Sequence record: KM389437.1
Strand: one strand, 5' to 3'
From: Escherichia phage Phi05_1999 B
Length of the DNA: 3,479 nucleotides
The notes below the pieces were generated by a model that saw nothing but the letters and a program-made list of their open reading frames with translations, was not told the DNA's origin and did not search any database. Positions 1 to 3,479 of this stretch are shown one piece after another (positions within the stretch are counted from its first letter, which is position 1; each line of letters opens with the position of its first letter). A program made the position numbers and the translations under genes.

Positions 1-56
1 AGAGGAAGAGGAAGAGGAAGATATATATAAAACCCCACACATAGCGCACGTGCGCG
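1..56. other. Possible right arm of a phage replication origin embedded in the O gene: GAGGAA x3 tandem hexamer (2-19), (AT)n/A-rich run (20-34), perfect 12-bp palindrome GCGCACGTGCGC (44-55)
   Basis: Repeats and palindrome read directly from the sequence. In lambda the origin lies inside O as iterons, then an AT-rich region, then a palindrome. The iterons would lie upstream of the window and are not visible. Confidence 0.35.
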
Positions 57-442
57 AGGGTGCTCCGACCAGTGAAGCGAACGGTATGCCGTTGCAGGTG
101 GCTGAACCTGAATTTCTGGATGGCCTGAGTGAACCCATCGGGAAATTTCCGATGACCGATGGCTGGCTACCGTCGCCAGATTTTCGGCGGCGTGCTGCGC
201 TGTGGGGAACGGCCCTGCCGGAACCGGAATTTACACCTGCTGAACTTGCTGCATTCCGGGATTACTGGATGGCTGAGGGCAAAGTGTTCACGCAGGTTCA
301 GTGGGAACAAAAATTCGCCAGGCACGTAAATCATATCAGGGGAAAATCAAAAAATGCCGGGAAAAGCGATGAGCTTGACTGGAATAACACTGACTGGATA
401 GAAGGGGTGTGGGATGAAATCAACTCCAGAACTTCTCAATGA
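2..442 (+). CDS. O: Replication initiation protein O-like, C-terminal (P-interacting) portion; 5' end lies outside the window
   Basis: The frame of the 50..442 ORF stays open back to position 2 (EEEEEEDIYKTPHIAHV-REGAPT...), so the GTG at 50 is internal and the gene is truncated by the window edge. The C-terminal end (...SDELDWNNTDWIEGVWDE) resembles the lambda O C-terminus (...LDLTNTDWIYGVDL, from memory). Position immediately upstream of and overlapping a P-like gene matches lambda O-P order. Stop TGA 440-442. Confidence 0.75.
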   Translation, partial: EEEEEEDIYKTPHIAHVREGAPTSEANGMPLQVAEPEFLDGLSEPIGKFPMTDGWLPSPDFRRRAALWGTALPEPEFTPAELAAFRDYWMAEGKVFTQVQWEQKFARHVNHIRGKSKNAGKSDELDWNNTDWIEGVWDEINSRTSQ

Positions 443-1190
443 GTACGATCGCTTACGTGAGCATGGTGTTGCTGTGCATGAAGAGCGGCGGGACTGCAAT
501 GGCAAAAAGGAGCAGGTTGCTAGAATTTTCAATGAACTATTTGTCCAGTTACAGGCTGCATTTCCTGCAAGCGTTTCGACCATAAGGGAGCAGAACAAAC
601 TTAATGAATTCCGTAAGCAATGGATGCTTGCGTTTCTGGAGAATGGGATCACTACAATGGAACAGGTTAACGCTGGTATGCGCCACGCCCGCGCCAGTGA
701 ATCTCCGTTCTGGCCGTCGCCAGGGCAATTTATCAAGTGGTGTAAAGACAGCAAGATGGTTCTTGGCGTCACCATTGACGATGTGATGGCGGAGTTTCAC
801 CGGTACAGCAAGGAAAAAAGTTTATATCCTGGTGGTCCCGAAAGATTCCCGTGGCGGCATCCGGTTATGTACTGGGTCGTATGTGATACCCGCCGTGCAA
901 TGTATCAGCGCCAGCTTAGCGAGATTGAGGTTGAGAAACACGCGCGCAGGCTGCTCGATGATTGGGCGAAAAAGGTGGCTTCCGGACAGCAGATACCCGA
1001 TCCGGTGATCAGCATACAGGCAAAGCCAGAACCCATGAGTACACCTCCGGACACAGGGAGAGACGTTTACCATCCACCAGGGCGAAGTTTCGGGTGCATG
1101 CCTAACGCCGCCACCCTGGGGGGAATAACACCGGCGCAGTGGCTGATGGAGGAGTACAGGCGGGGAAAGGCAGCAGGATTTATCAAGTAA
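414..1190 (+). CDS. P: Replication protein P-like (DnaB helicase loader), 258 aa
   Basis: Translation aligns by eye with lambda P from memory: here LFVQLQAAFPASVSTIREQNKLNEFRKQWMLAFLENGITTMEQVNAGMRHARASESPFWPSPGQFIKWC versus lambda VFSQLLATFPASLANRDQNEVNEIRRQWVLAFRENGITTMEQVNAGMRVARRQNRPFLPSPGQFVAWC. N-terminal length before this block is the same. SD AAGGGG (402-407) lies 6 nt upstream of ATG 414. Start overlaps the O stop by 29 nt. Stop TAA 1188-1190. Confidence 0.88.
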   Translation: MKSTPELLNEYDRLREHGVAVHEERRDCNGKKEQVARIFNELFVQLQAAFPASVSTIREQNKLNEFRKQWMLAFLENGITTMEQVNAGMRHARASESPFWPSPGQFIKWCKDSKMVLGVTIDDVMAEFHRYSKEKSLYPGGPERFPWRHPVMYWVVCDTRRAMYQRQLSEIEVEKHARRLLDDWAKKVASGQQIPDPVISIQAKPEPMSTPPDTGRDVYHPPGRSFGCMPNAATLGGITPAQWLMEEYRRGKAAGFIK

Positions 1191-1195
1191 TACCA

Positions 1196-1215
1196 GCGCG
1201 ATAGCGCATTTTTTT
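1196..1215 (+). terminator. Weak intrinsic-terminator-like hairpin, GCGC-GATA-GCGC followed by A + T7 (tR2-like position after P)
   Basis: 4-bp all-GC stem (1196-1199 / 1204-1207), 4-nt loop, then T-run 1209-1215, located 6 nt after the P stop. The stem is short, so termination would be partial at best. Lambda has tR2 downstream of P. Confidence 0.3.
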
Positions 1216-1226
1216 ACGTCTCGATA

Positions 1227-1243
1227 ATTACCTGTTAGGTAAT
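1227..1243. promoter_or_regulatory. Perfect 7-3-7 palindrome ATTACCT-gtt-AGGTAAT (candidate operator, copy 1)
   Basis: Arms are exact reverse complements. A second near-identical copy lies 62 bp downstream, centre to centre. Confidence 0.4.
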
Positions 1244-1261
1244 AAAATGTTCTAAAATCTA

Positions 1262-1290
1262 TTGATTTCGTGTCTTATGTGGTTTTTAAT
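1262..1290 (+). promoter_or_regulatory. Sigma70-like promoter candidate: -35 TTGATT (1262-1267), 17-bp spacer, -10 TTTAAT (1285-1290)
   Basis: 4/6 and 5/6 matches to TTGACA / TATAAT with canonical 17-bp spacing. Predicted +1 near 1297, giving a very short leader to ATG 1308. Not verified. Confidence 0.25.
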
Positions 1291-1305
1291 TACCTAAGAG
1301 GTAAA
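1289..1305. promoter_or_regulatory. Near-perfect palindrome ATTACCT-aag-AGGTAAA (candidate operator, copy 2) overlapping the -10 element, predicted +1 and SD of the DUF1064 gene
   Basis: Same half-sites as copy 1 with one mismatch in the outermost position of the right arm. Overlaps SD AAGAGG (1296-1301) of the gene starting at 1308. Confidence 0.4.
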
Positions 1306-1307
1306 TC

Positions 1308-1652
1308 ATGAGAAAACAGATACAGGCTCTTGGTCGACTCAAAACAGGCCAGATGAACAAAACAGAATCTGCGTATTGCCAGCACCTTGAGCTGCGTAAA
1401 CGTGCAGGGGAAATCGCCTGGTATCGATTCGAGGGTATCAAGCTGCGGTTAGCTGACAACACGTTCTATACGCCAGATTTCGCTGTGATGCTCGCCACCG
1501 GAGAGATGGAACTGCACGAAGTGAAAGGTTTCTGGACCGACGACGCCAGGGTGAAAACCAAAGTCGCCGCAGATCAGTATCCGTTCCGAATCATCGGGGT
1601 AACGGTTAAACCAAAGAAAGCAGGTGGCGGCTGGAACATCGAAGAGTTCTGA
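1308..1652 (+). CDS. DUF1064-like protein with PD-(D/E)xK nuclease-like motif, 114 aa
   Basis: SD AAGAGG lies 6 nt upstream of ATG 1308. Translation contains AGEI (res 33-36), YTPDF (res 54-58) and ELHEVKG (res 68-74), i.e. D57 ... E71-x-K73, the spacing of a PD-(D/E)xK core. The overall pattern matches my recollection of the DUF1064 family found near phage replication genes. Stop TGA 1650-1652. Confidence 0.7.
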   Translation: MRKQIQALGRLKTGQMNKTESAYCQHLELRKRAGEIAWYRFEGIKLRLADNTFYTPDFAVMLATGEMELHEVKGFWTDDARVKTKVAADQYPFRIIGVTVKPKKAGGGWNIEEF

Positions 1653-1713
1653 ATCGACGATCTTTTTAGTTATCAATGTAATCAATAAGTTATGTGGATA
1701 AGCGAGGGTAAAG

Positions 1714-2331
1714 ATGGAAAGTAATATCAAAGGGTTAGTTGCCGCCGGGCATGAGATGGCTTCGGAACTGAACGCAGAATGTGGTGCCGTTGATATGCGC
1801 AGTGTGGCAAAGCTGATCAGCGATTTGGCAACGCAACTGGAAGTGCAACTGGTGCGTGCTAATGCGCTGGCAGCGGAGAATGCTGGGCTTAAGGCCTTCA
1901 AAACCGCCGTTTATCAGCAGATGGGCGTCGGATGTGATGCTCCTGAATTCTCCATTACGACAGGTTTGAGTAACTTACGTCGTTTTGCTGACACACTCCA
2001 CGCCATTGAACGTGAGTTCTTTACCAAAGAGCTACCTGATGAAGAGCACGAAGGCGAAACATTCAATGAATGTCCACTTAGCTGGGGAATGAGCGTCGAA
2101 CAGTACGTTTCCGAGTTTCGCAAATGCCTGGCTGAAGTGCGGGCGCAGGGGGTGGATGCTGCTATAGAAGCTGCAAAAAATCTGGTGGCCCAAGAATATG
2201 AGTATAAGGATTTCAAAGCGGCGCAGAGTGATTGCTGTATGCACCCTGGTTCAGACCTGGTAGGGAAGGTTGAAATGACTGAGTGGTTAGTTGACTTTGC
2301 TGCCCAGCTTCGCAAAGGAGGCAACCAGTGA
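1714..2331 (+). CDS. Hypothetical phage protein, 205 aa, acidic, helical N-terminal region
   Basis: SD GAGGG (1704-1708) lies 5 nt upstream of ATG 1714. Long ORF with ordinary amino-acid composition, co-directional with neighbours. Stop TGA 2329-2331 overlaps the next gene's GTG start. No family recognised by eye. Confidence 0.7.
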   Translation: MESNIKGLVAAGHEMASELNAECGAVDMRSVAKLISDLATQLEVQLVRANALAAENAGLKAFKTAVYQQMGVGCDAPEFSITTGLSNLRRFADTLHAIEREFFTKELPDEEHEGETFNECPLSWGMSVEQYVSEFRKCLAEVRAQGVDAAIEAAKNLVAQEYEYKDFKAAQSDCCMHPGSDLVGKVEMTEWLVDFAAQLRKGGNQ

Positions 2332-2627
2332 CTGTATGTCTTATTGATAAACGTCGACGTGGGCAACAAATACCATCTGTTGAAATGCCGAATCACACAT
2401 GGTTTTGCGTACTTGATATCGATGGTATGGATACGTTGGTTGACACTCGTCATTACTGCGATACCGCAACAGCTACTCCGGCGAAAGCAAAGAAAATGGC
2501 TGCTCTGATAGAAAACTGGACTCCACCTGATGGTTGGTGCAATGGGAATGATCGAGATTGGCACGAAAAAATGAAGGGCTATATCTGCGATTTTTTACGT
2601 AAATGCAACGGCTTCAGGGGGATGTGA
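2328..2627 (+). CDS. Hypothetical small Cys/His-rich protein, 99 aa (GTG start)
   Basis: Strong SD AGGAGG (2316-2321) lies 6 nt upstream of GTG 2328, which overlaps the upstream stop as GTGA (translational coupling). Six Cys and three His in 99 aa. An alternative in-frame ATG at 2385 has no SD. Stop TGA 2625-2627. Confidence 0.6.
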   Translation: MTVCLIDKRRRGQQIPSVEMPNHTWFCVLDIDGMDTLVDTRHYCDTATATPAKAKKMAALIENWTPPDGWCNGNDRDWHEKMKGYICDFLRKCNGFRGM

Positions 2628-2628
2628 T

Positions 2629-3201
2629 ATGACCAAAATTAACTATCAGGCACTGCGTGAGGCGGCAGAACGTGCAATTCCGGCAATGGAACGCCTGTTA
2701 ATGTTGCCAGTTGATGATGATTTGTTAAGTGAACAGGAACTTAAGGATTACGGTGTGGATATTGATGCGCTCAACGCCTTCAAATTTCTGACCGGACCAG
2801 AAACCGTGCTGGCGCTGCTGGATGAACGGGAAAGAAACCAGCAATACATCAAACGCCGCGACCAGGAGAACGAGGAAATTGCGCTAACGGTAGGGAAGCT
2901 GCGCGTTGAGCTGGAAGCTGCAGAGAAGCGCATTGCAGAACTGGAAGCCGAACCTGTAAGCCAAACTTACAAGTTGAACGAGCTGTCGGGCAACTATCCG
3001 GTAACTCCGGATGGTTGGATAAGCTGTAGTGAGCGAATGCCCGCTCAAGATGATTGGATTTTAATTTATTCAAAGCACGGCGAGTATATGGCAGGACAGG
3101 TACAAGGGGAATACGTGGAGTTGAGCGACGGCACTTTATCGTGGTTAGGGAACGCCTTGTACTGGATGCCTCTACCGGAACCGCCGCAGGAGGTTAATTG
3201 A
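2629..3201 (+). CDS. Phage protein with N-terminal ALREAAE motif (Ea22-like?), central coiled coil and C-terminal DUF551-like domain, 190 aa
   Basis: SD AGGGGGA (2616-2622) lies 6 nt upstream of ATG 2629, one nt after the upstream stop. Residues 85-108 have a heptad-like VELEAAEKRIAELEAE. The C-terminus PDGWISCSERMP...YWMPLPEPP matches my recollection of the DUF551 signature (W-x-WMPLPEPP). The N-terminus resembles ead/Ea22-like family starts. Family assignments are from memory only. Confidence 0.7.
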   Translation: MTKINYQALREAAERAIPAMERLLMLPVDDDLLSEQELKDYGVDIDALNAFKFLTGPETVLALLDERERNQQYIKRRDQENEEIALTVGKLRVELEAAEKRIAELEAEPVSQTYKLNELSGNYPVTPDGWISCSERMPAQDDWILIYSKHGEYMAGQVQGEYVELSDGTLSWLGNALYWMPLPEPPQEVN

Positions 3202-3395
3202 TGGTCTCCTTCGCGAAATATACGATTATTGACTGGATAGCATTCATTCAGGTTTTGCTCATCTGGTTTTATATGGCTTACAGGAGTGGACAGTGGATTG
3301 TCAGTGTAGCCTGTAGCAATGGATGGCGTTGGTGGAACCGAAAGAATAAAAAAAGCGCTGGCCTTGGCTTCGTTTTACGAAGCATTCAATCTTAA
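3201..3395 (+). CDS. Small Trp-rich single-pass membrane protein, 64 aa
   Basis: Strong SD AGGAGG (3188-3193) lies 7 nt upstream of ATG 3201, which overlaps the upstream TGA (TGATG). Hydrophobic segment IIDWIAFIQVLLIWFYMAY is followed by the basic tail WRWWNRKNKK. Six Trp in 64 aa. The ORF track starts it at TTG 3198, but ATG 3201 is better placed relative to the SD. Stop TAA 3393-3395. Confidence 0.55.
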   Translation: MVSFAKYTIIDWIAFIQVLLIWFYMAYRSGQWIVSVACSNGWRWWNRKNKKSAGLGFVLRSIQS

Positions 3396-3479
3396 CAGTC
3401 TTCAGCCTGGTTCTGTCGTTGTAGTCACCACTCAAAGCGGCATGACGATACAAATTCACAAGCCAAAGGAGGAAGGTCG

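What the first reader, a model, noticed from the sequence alone, without database searches (positions are those of the whole stretch)
1308..1652. DUF1064-like PD-(D/E)xK protein as first gene after the P terminator region
The 114-aa product carries a D57 ... E71-V-K73 arrangement typical of the PD-(D/E)xK nuclease fold and matches the DUF1064 pattern as I recall it. It sits where lambda carries ren/nin recombination functions, so it may be a small structure-specific nuclease for recombination or replication processing. A nuclease with a self-targeting or defence-related role is a less likely alternative. The function of this family is, to my knowledge, not experimentally settled.
Basis: partly seen in the sequence, partly recalled or inferred. 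Interest (0 to 1): 0.5.

Follow-up and report, generated by a model that had tools for sequence, protein, structure and literature searches.

The report
Small T7-endonuclease-I-like phage nuclease gene
This is a real, already-annotated 114-residue prophage gene of the DUF1064 family, a small DNA-cutting enzyme distantly related to phage T7's junction-cutting endonuclease I; it most likely trims branched DNA during phage replication and recombination, though nobody has tested this in the lab.

Summary
ORF 1308-1652(+) encodes 114 aa with D57 and E71-V-K73 exactly as stated. It passes Pfam DUF1064 (31 bits; cutoff 24.7).

The window comes from a phiV10/epsilon15-type temperate podophage. These carry lambda-like O/P replication genes and a RecT-type recombinase but no annotated RusA, Rap or RuvC. 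In F116-type phages DUF1064 fills the slot after ybcO that RusA fills in E. coli lambdoid prophages. The best reading is therefore a junction-resolving or debranching nuclease. That function is inferred, not shown.

None of this is new. Near-identical proteins are already labelled DUF1064, and the family was placed in the PD-(D/E)XK superfamily in 2005.

A side finding: the gene follows a conserved weak terminator-like hairpin and is flanked by two copies of a phage-wide palindrome (TTACC-N5-GGTAA), which suggests its own regulated promoter.

The parts
1308..1652 (+). DUF1064-family PD-(D/E)XK nuclease gene, 114 aa plus stop
   Evidence: ORF list. Pfam PF06356 31 bits, above GA 24.7. PHROG 190 at 7e-43. 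97-99% identical to proteins named 'DUF1064 domain-containing protein'. AlphaFold2 pLDDT 94.4.
1365..1367 (+). Codon for E20, the predicted first metal-binding acidic residue at the N-terminal end of helix 1
   Evidence: Kept in 148/149 representatives and invariant in alignment A1. Aligns with T7 endonuclease I E20.
1476..1478 (+). Codon for D57 of the T-P-D-F motif (the 'PD' element)
   Evidence: Kept in 150/151 representatives. Aligns with T7 endonuclease I D55.
1518..1526 (+). Codons for E71-V72-K73, the '(D/E)xK' element at the end of a beta strand
   Evidence: E71 is E in 142 and D in 8 representatives; K73 is kept in 149/150. They align with T7 endonuclease I E65 and K67. The strand spans residues 67-72 in the model.
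1296..1301 (+). Shine-Dalgarno sequence AAGAGG, 6 nt upstream of ATG 1308, lying inside palindrome copy 2
   Evidence: Read directly from the sequence. The region is conserved in relatives.
1196..1215 (+). Weak terminator-like element after P: GCGC / GATA loop / GCGC, then A and T7
   Evidence: Stem arms and T-tract are invariant and the loop is variable in seven phages. The hairpin appears in the minimum-free-energy fold. phiV10 annotates it as a putative rho-independent terminator. The consensus scan did not call it because the stem has only 4 bp.
1228..1242 (.). Palindrome copy 1, TTACCTGTTAGGTAA (a putative operator)
   Evidence: Two matches in the window against 0.00 expected. Arms invariant and spacer variable across hosts. 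The same palindrome lies near the starts of the other transcription units of phiV10-type genomes.
1262..1290 (+). Promoter-like element TTGATT-17 nt-TTTAAT between the two palindromes
   Evidence: Read from the sequence. It has the same geometry as the region upstream of the early-left (recombinase) operon in phiV10: palindrome, ~22 nt, cTATTGA(C/T), 22 nt, palindrome. The scan's rule requiring A at position 2 of the -10 hexamer excludes it. This is inference only.
1290..1304 (.). Palindrome copy 2, TTACCTAAGAGGTAA (a putative operator), 62 nt from copy 1 and covering the ribosome-binding site
414..1190 (+). Context: lambda P-type helicase-loader gene immediately upstream
   Evidence: Pfam Phage_lambda_P 187.7 bits. 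PHROG 109 'P-like helicase loader'.

Best explanation
The gene encodes a minimal, single-domain, Mg2+-dependent PD-(D/E)XK endonuclease of the DUF1064 family, a distant homologue of T7 endonuclease I. Its most likely job is to act as a dimer that recognises and cuts branched DNA: Holliday junctions, D-loops and replication-recombination branches. That would let the phiV10/epsilon15-type phage resolve the intermediates made by its RecT-type recombinase and lambda-type O/P replication, producing unbranched concatemers that can be packaged.

In the proposed mechanism, E20 (helix 1), D57 and E71 bind the catalytic metal and K73 positions the attacking water. The basic, Gly-rich N-terminal arm (residues 1-17) and the conserved K83/K85 on helix 2 would contact DNA.

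Shown here: the ORF, family membership, fold, conservation of the four residues, homology to T7 endonuclease I, and gene context. Inferred: nuclease activity, dimerisation, preference for branched DNA, and the role in the phage life cycle.
For: Family and fold:
- Pfam DUF1064 above its cutoff.
- PHROG 190, labelled 'Holliday junction resolvase', at 7e-43.
- AlphaFold2 model with pLDDT 94.4 and pTM 0.83, showing an alpha-beta-beta-beta-alpha-beta core.
- Foldseek against the PDB: the best hits are Bax1, Hjc, the AddAB nuclease domain and VRR-NUC.

Active site:
- E20, D57, E71 and K73 are nearly invariant in 150 representatives.
- hhalign of the family profile against T7 gp3 gives probability 92.1%, E=6e-7 and 33% identity over 72 columns. 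It aligns E20-E20, D57-D55, E71-E65 and K73-K67.
- Among viral models, a T7-type 'Endonuclease I' matches at Foldseek E=1.6e-4.

Context:
- The complete phiV10 annotation has a RecE/RecT fusion and O/P genes but no RusA, Rap/NinG, RuvC or endonuclease VII.
- The E. coli A33 prophage and five Klebsiella prophages have the same layout, with RecT plus a YqaJ or DUF3799 exonuclease.
- In F116-type phages the order is NinB, YbcO, DUF1064 with overlapping stop and start codons. In DLP12, and in 71 of 80 E. coli viral contigs, the gene directly after ybcO is rusA, and none of those contigs has DUF1064 within 3 kb.
- In an Acinetobacter baumannii prophage, DUF1064 sits directly before the Q antiterminator. 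That is the slot rusA occupies, two genes before quuD, in DLP12.

Size: at 114 aa with no extra domain, the protein matches dimeric junction resolvases (RusA 120 aa, T7 endonuclease I 149 aa, Hjc chains of 120-126 residues) rather than sequence-specific restriction enzymes.
Against: - No biochemical or genetic experiment on any DUF1064 protein was found. The PHROG label may itself be an annotation transfer.
- The protein fails the Pfam cutoff for the T7 endonuclease I family (14.9 against 29.1 bits). It also lacks the C-terminal ~50 residues of T7 endonuclease I.
- Dimerisation and the T7-type domain swap could not be tested.
- Vibrio phage X29 carries DUF1064 two genes away from a protein matching PHROG 3007, 'RusA-like Holliday junction resolvase'. 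That protein has no Pfam RusA hit, but the two functions may not be strictly exclusive.
- 'No other resolvase' rests on record annotation and precomputed Pfam hits, not on an exhaustive profile scan of every ORF.
Confidence: 0.55

Rival explanations
1. A general early nuclease that nicks or degrades host or unprotected DNA during lytic growth, supplying nucleotides or recombinogenic ends, rather than a dedicated junction resolvase.
For: This was the original speculation for the family (Kosinski, Feder and Bujnicki 2005). From my own knowledge, not from a tool, T7 gene 3 endonuclease, the closest characterised homologue, also takes part in host DNA breakdown. The gene sits behind its own palindrome-flanked promoter-like region, which would suit a potentially toxic activity that must be kept off in lysogens.
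Against: The family is found mainly in temperate phages and prophages; 530 of 5,426 complete E. coli genomes carry this gene. In such phages wholesale host degradation is unusual. There is no partner exonuclease or inhibitor gene next to it. Its positional exchange with rusA points to a recombination role.
Confidence: 0.15
2. A replication-restart or fork-processing nuclease tied specifically to the O/P replisome, for example cleaving stalled forks or theta structures to start rolling-circle or recombination-dependent replication, rather than a late debranching enzyme.
For: In all Uetakevirus-type genomes examined, the gene directly follows the replication genes, even where the replication module differs: SPN1S has a single initiator gene there. 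The intergenic region and the gene travel together as a conserved module.
Against: In F116, X29 and Parlo the gene is not next to replication initiator or loader genes. It is next to NinB/YbcO or to unrelated genes. This explanation overlaps mechanistically with the best explanation and differs mostly in timing and substrate.
Confidence: 0.12
3. A defence, counter-defence or superinfection-exclusion nuclease, such as a solitary restriction-like enzyme or a nuclease targeting competing phages.
For: Some records call orthologues 'putative restriction endonuclease' (SPC32N). One staphylococcal prophage has a DUF1064 gene next to a methyltransferase. The downstream genes are a mosaic accessory region of eae/ea22/DUF551 type.
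Against: No PADLOC model matches. There is no adjacent methyltransferase or specificity subunit here. The protein has no recognition domain. The MT-A70 methylase of these prophages lies in the opposite early-left operon and is not linked to this gene. The closest characterised homologue is a resolvase.
Confidence: 0.07
4. A T4 gp4-like head-completion nuclease or packaging-associated nuclease, or a catalytically inert DNA-binding protein.
For: The T4 gp4 family was linked to DUF1064 by remote profile searches. A 'Head completion nuclease' appears among the viral structural matches at E=4e-3.
Against: The gene lies in the early-right operon with replication genes, not in the structural module. 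All four catalytic residues are nearly invariant, which argues against an inert protein.
Confidence: 0.04

Closest known systems
Pfam PF06356 (DUF1064), e.g. phiV10 gp45 (YP_512300.1), F116 gp36, S. aureus phage phiH ORF25
   Same: The query scores above the Pfam gathering cutoff. It is 98% identical to phiV10 gp45 and 82% to F116 gp36. It has the same length, the same E...PD...ExK motif and the same phage or prophage setting.
   Different: Nothing substantive; it is a member. This proteobacterial clade scores only modestly against the Pfam model (31 bits; F116 26.7; Parlo 20.9, which is below the cutoff), so it is a divergent branch of the family.
T7 endonuclease I (gene 3 product; Pfam PF05367; PDB 1fzr, 1m0d, 2pfj)
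   Same: Profile-profile homology at 92% probability, with the catalytic tetrad E20/D55/E65/K67 aligned to E20/D57/E71/K73. Both share the YTPDF and E-x-KG-x-W-x-D motifs and a basic Gly-rich N-terminal arm before E20. Both are small phage early proteins.
   Different: It falls below the Pfam family cutoff (14.9 against 29.1 bits). It is 35 residues shorter and lacks most of the T7 C-terminal region. The domain-swapped dimer and junction selectivity that define T7 endonuclease I are untested here. T7 is virulent, whereas this phage is temperate.
Archaeal Holliday junction resolvase Hjc (PDB 1gef, 2wcw, 1hh1, 1ob8)
   Different: There is no sequence-level relationship (10-14% identity) and no Pfam Hjc hit. 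The resemblance is at fold level only.
RusA (Pfam PF05866), the resolvase of lambdoid prophages such as DLP12 and phage 82
   Same: It occupies an equivalent genomic slot. ybcO-rusA in E. coli lambdoids corresponds to ybcO-DUF1064 in F116-type phages. Both lie just before the Q antiterminator. Sizes are similar (120 against 114 aa).
   Different: The fold and catalytic residues are unrelated and there is no RusA profile match. Any equivalence is functional analogy inferred from position.

Membership tests
DUF1064 (Pfam PF06356) | Whole-protein score at or above the Pfam gathering threshold (24.7 bits) | tested here: met
   31.0 bits, E=3.7e-7, residues 18-92 against profile positions 19-102 of 117. 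The closest database proteins carry a precomputed PF06356 hit and the name 'DUF1064 domain-containing protein'.
DUF1064 (Pfam PF06356) | Small stand-alone protein encoded in tailed phages or prophages | tested here: met
   114 aa. Found in phiV10, SPN1S, F116 and other phages, and in prophages at guaA.
PD-(D/E)XK nuclease superfamily (Pfam clan) | Restriction-endonuclease-like alpha-beta-beta-beta-alpha-beta core fold | tested here: met
PD-(D/E)XK nuclease superfamily (Pfam clan) | Conserved acidic residue on helix 1, then (P)D, then (D/E)xK on consecutive strands | tested here: met
   E20 148/149; P56 131/151; D57 150/151; E71 142 E plus 8 D; K73 149/150. Positions relative to the strands are as expected.
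PD-(D/E)XK nuclease superfamily (Pfam clan) | Divalent-metal-dependent phosphodiester hydrolysis | not testable with these tools
   Requires purified protein.
T7 endonuclease I family (Pfam PF05367) | Score at or above the Pfam gathering threshold (29.1 bits) | tested here: not met
   14.9 bits, E=0.021. phmmer against PDB chains gives E=0.22, and the family profile against the PDB gives E=0.022.
T7 endonuclease I family (Pfam PF05367) | Catalytic residues E20, D55, E65 and K67 present and alignable | tested here: met
   hhalign probability 92.1%, E=6e-7. All four residues fall in aligned columns.
T7 endonuclease I family (Pfam PF05367) | Intertwined, domain-swapped homodimer with composite active sites | not testable with these tools
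T7 endonuclease I family (Pfam PF05367) | Structure-selective cleavage of four-way junctions | not testable with these tools
   Requires biochemistry. Only indirect context evidence is available.
RusA resolvase (Pfam PF05866) | RusA profile match | tested here: not met
   No RusA hit at E<=0.1. The positive control, E. coli RusA, scored 82 bits.
Known anti-phage defence nucleases (PADLOC-DB) | Match to any defence-system protein model | tested here: not met
   No families at E<=0.1.

The most novel reading that the evidence does not exclude
DUF1064 proteins are the long-unassigned junction-resolving enzymes of epsilon15/phiV10-type and many other temperate phages. On this reading they are a stripped-down, 114-residue version of T7 endonuclease I that lacks its C-terminal third and may dimerise differently. 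In this phage group the gene would be expressed from a third early promoter, bracketed by the same palindromic sites that flank the promoter-like region of the early-left operon beside the repressor gene, which would keep a potentially toxic nuclease silent in lysogens.
Probability: 0.3. Interest if true: 0.4.

Novelty: already known. Interest (0 to 1): 0.22.

Why it matters
Little changes for this window, because the gene and its family assignment are already in public databases. What remains is a very common phage and prophage family (4,659 clusters at 50% identity; about 10% of complete E. coli genomes carry this gene) that still carries a 'domain of unknown function' name. Public records also give it conflicting labels: 'helicase subunit of the DNA excision repair complex', 'putative restriction endonuclease' and 'RusA-like'. 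A simple junction-cleavage assay could turn the DUF into a named resolvase family and correct those annotations. It would also explain how recombinase-bearing phages that lack RusA, Rap and RuvC debranch their DNA before packaging.

Tried and rejected
- I recalled that SPP1 G44P was a characterised DUF1064 resolvase. The paper shows G44P is RusA-like, so I dropped that lead.
- The sequence-only search of the PDB gave only marginal hits (E=0.22, or 0.022 with the profile). It was useful only because the catalytic motif aligned, and hhalign later put it on firmer ground.
- NCBIfam gave nothing meaningful. PADLOC gave nothing for the focal protein. Rfam gave nothing in the window.
- Literature searches for 'PF06356', 'endonuclease I-like' plus 'Holliday junction', and 'T7 endonuclease I-like' found no experimental work.
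- The YbcO-anchored scan of viral contigs returned only near-identical E. coli copies (96-100% identity). It confirms that ybcO-rusA is the norm there but is not a diverse test of displacement.
- The apparent RusA and DUF1064 co-occurrence in Vibrio phage X29 could not be settled. The protein has no Pfam RusA hit but does match a PHROG labelled 'RusA-like'.
- I tried to retrieve the epsilon15 genome paper (PMC2698709; id confirmed from a reference list) to see whether the TTACC-N5-GGTAA palindrome is already described. The paper is not held. My recollection that a similar inverted repeat was reported there is unverified.
- The homologous-protein hits were all more than 80% identical, which is too shallow for conservation analysis. 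I used the 50%-cluster representative search instead.

Full report
**1. The observation**

The window contains an ORF at 1308-1652 on the + strand, encoding 114 aa. ATG 1308 is the first possible start, because TAA lies in frame at 1302-1304. It is preceded by AAGAGG at 1296-1301. A further acidic residue, E20, lies upstream.

**2. Family, fold and conservation**

Pfam assigns the protein to DUF1064 (PF06356) at 31.0 bits, above the 24.7-bit gathering score. There is a sub-threshold hit to Phage_endo_I (14.9 bits). PHROGs places it in phrog_190, labelled 'Holliday junction resolvase', at 7e-43. PADLOC and NCBIfam give nothing meaningful.

The word-indexed protein search returned 6,867 relatives. 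The best 120 are all at least 81% identical, and those that carry a source name are called 'DUF1064 domain-containing protein'. The exhaustive search of 50%-identity representatives found 4,659 clusters at E<=1e-3.

I aligned the best 150 of those representatives, which are 48-76% identical to the query. E20 is kept in 148/149, D57 in 150/151, E71 in 142 with Asp in a further 8, and K73 in 149/150. N17, Y23, G34, F41, E42, F58, G74, K83 and K85 are also nearly invariant.

An AlphaFold2 model built on that alignment is confident (pLDDT 94.4, pTM 0.83). It shows helix 18-32, a run of strands, helix 78-90 and two more strands. D57 sits just before strand 58-62, and E71 lies at the end of strand 67-72 with K73 just after it.

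Neither is met.

**3. Relationship to T7 endonuclease I**

A single-sequence search and a profile search against PDB sequences hit T7 endonuclease I only weakly (E=0.22 and 0.022). Both nevertheless aligned YTPDF and E-x-KG.

A profile-profile comparison of the family alignment with T7 gp3 gives 92.1% probability, E=6e-7 and 33% identity over 72 columns. It aligns E20 with E20, D57 with D55, E71 with E65 and K73 with K67. From my own knowledge of the T7 endonuclease I literature, those four are its catalytic residues.

Among predicted viral structures, T7-type 'Endonuclease I' proteins match at E=1.6e-4, and a T4 gp4-type head-completion nuclease appears at E=4e-3. These are the same remote links reported in 2005.

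The protein is therefore homologous to T7 endonuclease I. It is not a member of that Pfam family, and it lacks most of the T7 C-terminal region.

**4. What the window is**

The upstream ORFs are the C-terminal part of an O-like initiator with a DnaT domain, and a lambda P-type helicase loader. Downstream are an eae-like ORF, DUF7739, an Ead/Ea22-DUF551 ORF and DUF4752.

The DNA matches phiV10/epsilon15-type temperate podophages (genus Uetakevirus), such as vB_EcoP_ZX5, phiV10 and TL-2011b. No single record covers more than 64% of the window. The focal gene and its flanks occur in 530 of 5,426 complete E. coli genomes.

The analogy to lambda's ren/nin region is therefore only positional. These phages have no nin region and no Q gene. 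The early-right operon runs from O/P through DUF1064 and a mosaic of small accessory genes into the terminase genes.

**5. Function inferred from context**

The complete phiV10 annotation contains a RecE/RecT fusion and O/P genes. It has no RusA, Rap/NinG, RuvC-like or endonuclease VII gene. The E. coli A33 prophage and five Klebsiella prophages have the same layout, with RecT plus a YqaJ or DUF3799 exonuclease and no RusA or NinG Pfam hit within 10 kb. SPN1S and BUCT554 keep DUF1064 directly after their replication genes.

In Pseudomonas phage F116 and a related prophage, the order is NinB, YbcO, DUF1064 with overlapping stop and start codons. In DLP12 the order is ybcO then rusA. In 80 E. 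coli viral contigs carrying ybcO, rusA was the adjacent downstream gene in 71, and DUF1064 was never present. That set is highly redundant, so it shows the norm in E. coli rather than a broad trend. In an A. baumannii prophage, DUF1064 directly precedes the Q antiterminator.

Together these observations suggest that DUF1064 fills the slot and the need that RusA fills elsewhere.

There is a caveat. Vibrio phage X29 has DUF1064 two genes from a protein that matches a PHROG labelled 'RusA-like' but has no Pfam RusA domain.

**6. Most likely mechanism**

The gene most likely encodes a dimeric, metal-dependent endonuclease selective for branched DNA. It would resolve recombination and replication intermediates before packaging. 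E20, D57 and E71 would bind the metal, K73 would act as the catalytic lysine, and the conserved basic N-terminal arm together with K83/K85 would bind DNA.

The fold, the residues and the homology are shown. The activity, the oligomeric state, the substrate preference and the in vivo role are inferred. I put this at about 0.55.

The rivals are:
- a general or host-DNA nuclease, which was the 2005 speculation;
- a fork-processing role tied to the O/P replisome;
- a defence-type nuclease, for which there is no PADLOC support;
- a gp4-like head-completion nuclease, which is in the wrong genomic module.

**7. Comparison with what is known, and novelty**

DUF1064 was predicted to be a PD-(D/E)XK nuclease related to T7 endonuclease I and TnsA in 2005. 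It was listed in the Pfam PD-(D/E)XK clan by 2007 and used as a known clan member in 2010. phiV10 gp45, which is 98% identical, is annotated DUF1064 in RefSeq.

I found no experimental study. All seven open-access papers that mention the family are computational or annotation tables. The finding itself is already known, and interest is low.

**8. Regulatory side finding**

The 117-nt P-to-DUF1064 spacer is conserved across E. coli, Salmonella, Enterobacter and Klebsiella phages. It contains two elements.

The first is GCGC-N4-GCGC plus T7 at 1196-1215. phiV10 annotates this as a putative terminator, although the consensus scan misses it.

The second is a pair of TTACC-N5-GGTAA palindromes at 1228-1242 and 1290-1304. 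Their arms are invariant and their spacers variable, and the second copy covers the ribosome-binding site.

The same palindrome occurs eight times in the 39-kb phiV10 genome:
- a pair with the same 62-nt spacing just downstream of the repressor gene, upstream of the early-left operon that carries the recombinase;
- one copy in the divergent region between the repressor and the early-right genes;
- the pair upstream of DUF1064;
- one copy near the start of the small-terminase gene, where it falls 46 nt inside the annotated coding sequence in phiV10 but upstream of the start codon in the Klebsiella prophages;
- one copy upstream of the portal operon;
- one copy beside the minus-strand gene p24.

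The early-left region and the DUF1064 region share one geometry: palindrome, about 22 nt, cTATTGA(C/T), 22 nt, palindrome. This suggests that DUF1064 heads a separately controlled early transcription unit.

The binding protein has not been identified. The HTH repressor has been shown experimentally to control lysis versus lysogeny in ZX5, and it is the obvious candidate. I could not check whether the epsilon15 genome paper already describes the palindrome.

Noticed in passing
window 1228-1242 and 1290-1304; phiV10 genome positions 87, 3252, 20497, 31953, 32015, 32727, 35070, 35132 (L006/L002); also L001, L007-L011, L014, L015: A 15-nt palindrome, TTACC-N5-GGTAA, with invariant arms and a variable spacer, recurs 8 times in the 39-kb phiV10 genome, mostly in intergenic regions near the starts of transcription units. 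Chance expectation is about 0.04 per genome, and 0.00 were expected in this window. Pairs spaced 62 nt apart flank promoter-like elements both upstream of the early-left operon and upstream of the DUF1064 gene. It is probably the operator of a phage regulator. I could not confirm whether it has been described before.
   Followed up: partly
window 1196-1215: A short GCGC-GATA-GCGC hairpin followed by A and T7 sits directly after the P stop codon. Its arms and T-tract are invariant in seven related phages. phiV10 annotates it as a putative rho-independent terminator, but its 4-bp stem is too weak for the consensus scan.
   Followed up: partly
window 1186-1320: As RNA, the two palindromes can also pair with each other over a long range and sequester the ribosome-binding site (MFE -33.3 kcal/mol, z = -3.7 against shuffles). 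The arms never vary, so there is no covariation to tell an RNA structure from a protein-binding DNA site.
   Followed up: partly
window 1-50: A tandem AGAGGA repeat (3.5 copies) followed by ATATATATAAAA and the palindrome-like CGCACGTGCGCG lies inside the O-like initiator reading frame, where it encodes EEEEEEDIYK. By analogy with lambda, where ori lies inside the O gene, this repeat plus AT-rich stretch could be part of the replication origin.
   Followed up: no
window 414-442: The O-like gene (ending at 442) and the P-like gene (ATG at 414) overlap by 29 nt in different frames. The same overlap is annotated in the E. coli A33 prophage, whereas phiV10 has a 4-nt overlap.
   Followed up: no
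orthologues of window 1308-1652 in public records (OQ921333.1, PP445227.1, KC911857.1; S. aureus phage ASZ22RN ORF58): Public annotations of this gene family are inconsistent and partly wrong. They include 'helicase subunit of the DNA excision repair complex', 'putative restriction endonuclease', 'endonuclease I-like superfamily protein', 'RusA-like crossover junction endodeoxyribonuclease' and 'hypothetical protein'.
   Followed up: partly
window 1651-3479: The accessory region downstream of DUF1064 is mosaic. No phage record covers more than 64% of the window. Positions 2128-3479 are 99.9% identical to the P22-like phage CUS-3, and positions 1-1587 and 1651-3479 are 100% identical to two separate records of 'Escherichia phage Phi05_2388 B'. 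ORF 2629-3201 combines Ead/Ea22 and DUF551 domains.
   Followed up: no
window 3198-3395: A 65-aa DUF4752 ORF with a hydrophobic N-terminal half, possibly a small membrane protein. It has a weak PADLOC hit to KwaA (E=0.022, 12 bits), which is probably chance.
   Followed up: no
L004 6662-7291 (Vibrio phage X29): A 209-aa protein annotated 'RusA-like Holliday junction resolvase' lies two genes from DUF1064. It matches PHROG 3007 (8e-46) but no Pfam family, and the record's own note says 'similar to DNA clamp'. Whether this phage really has two resolvase candidates is unresolved.
   Followed up: partly
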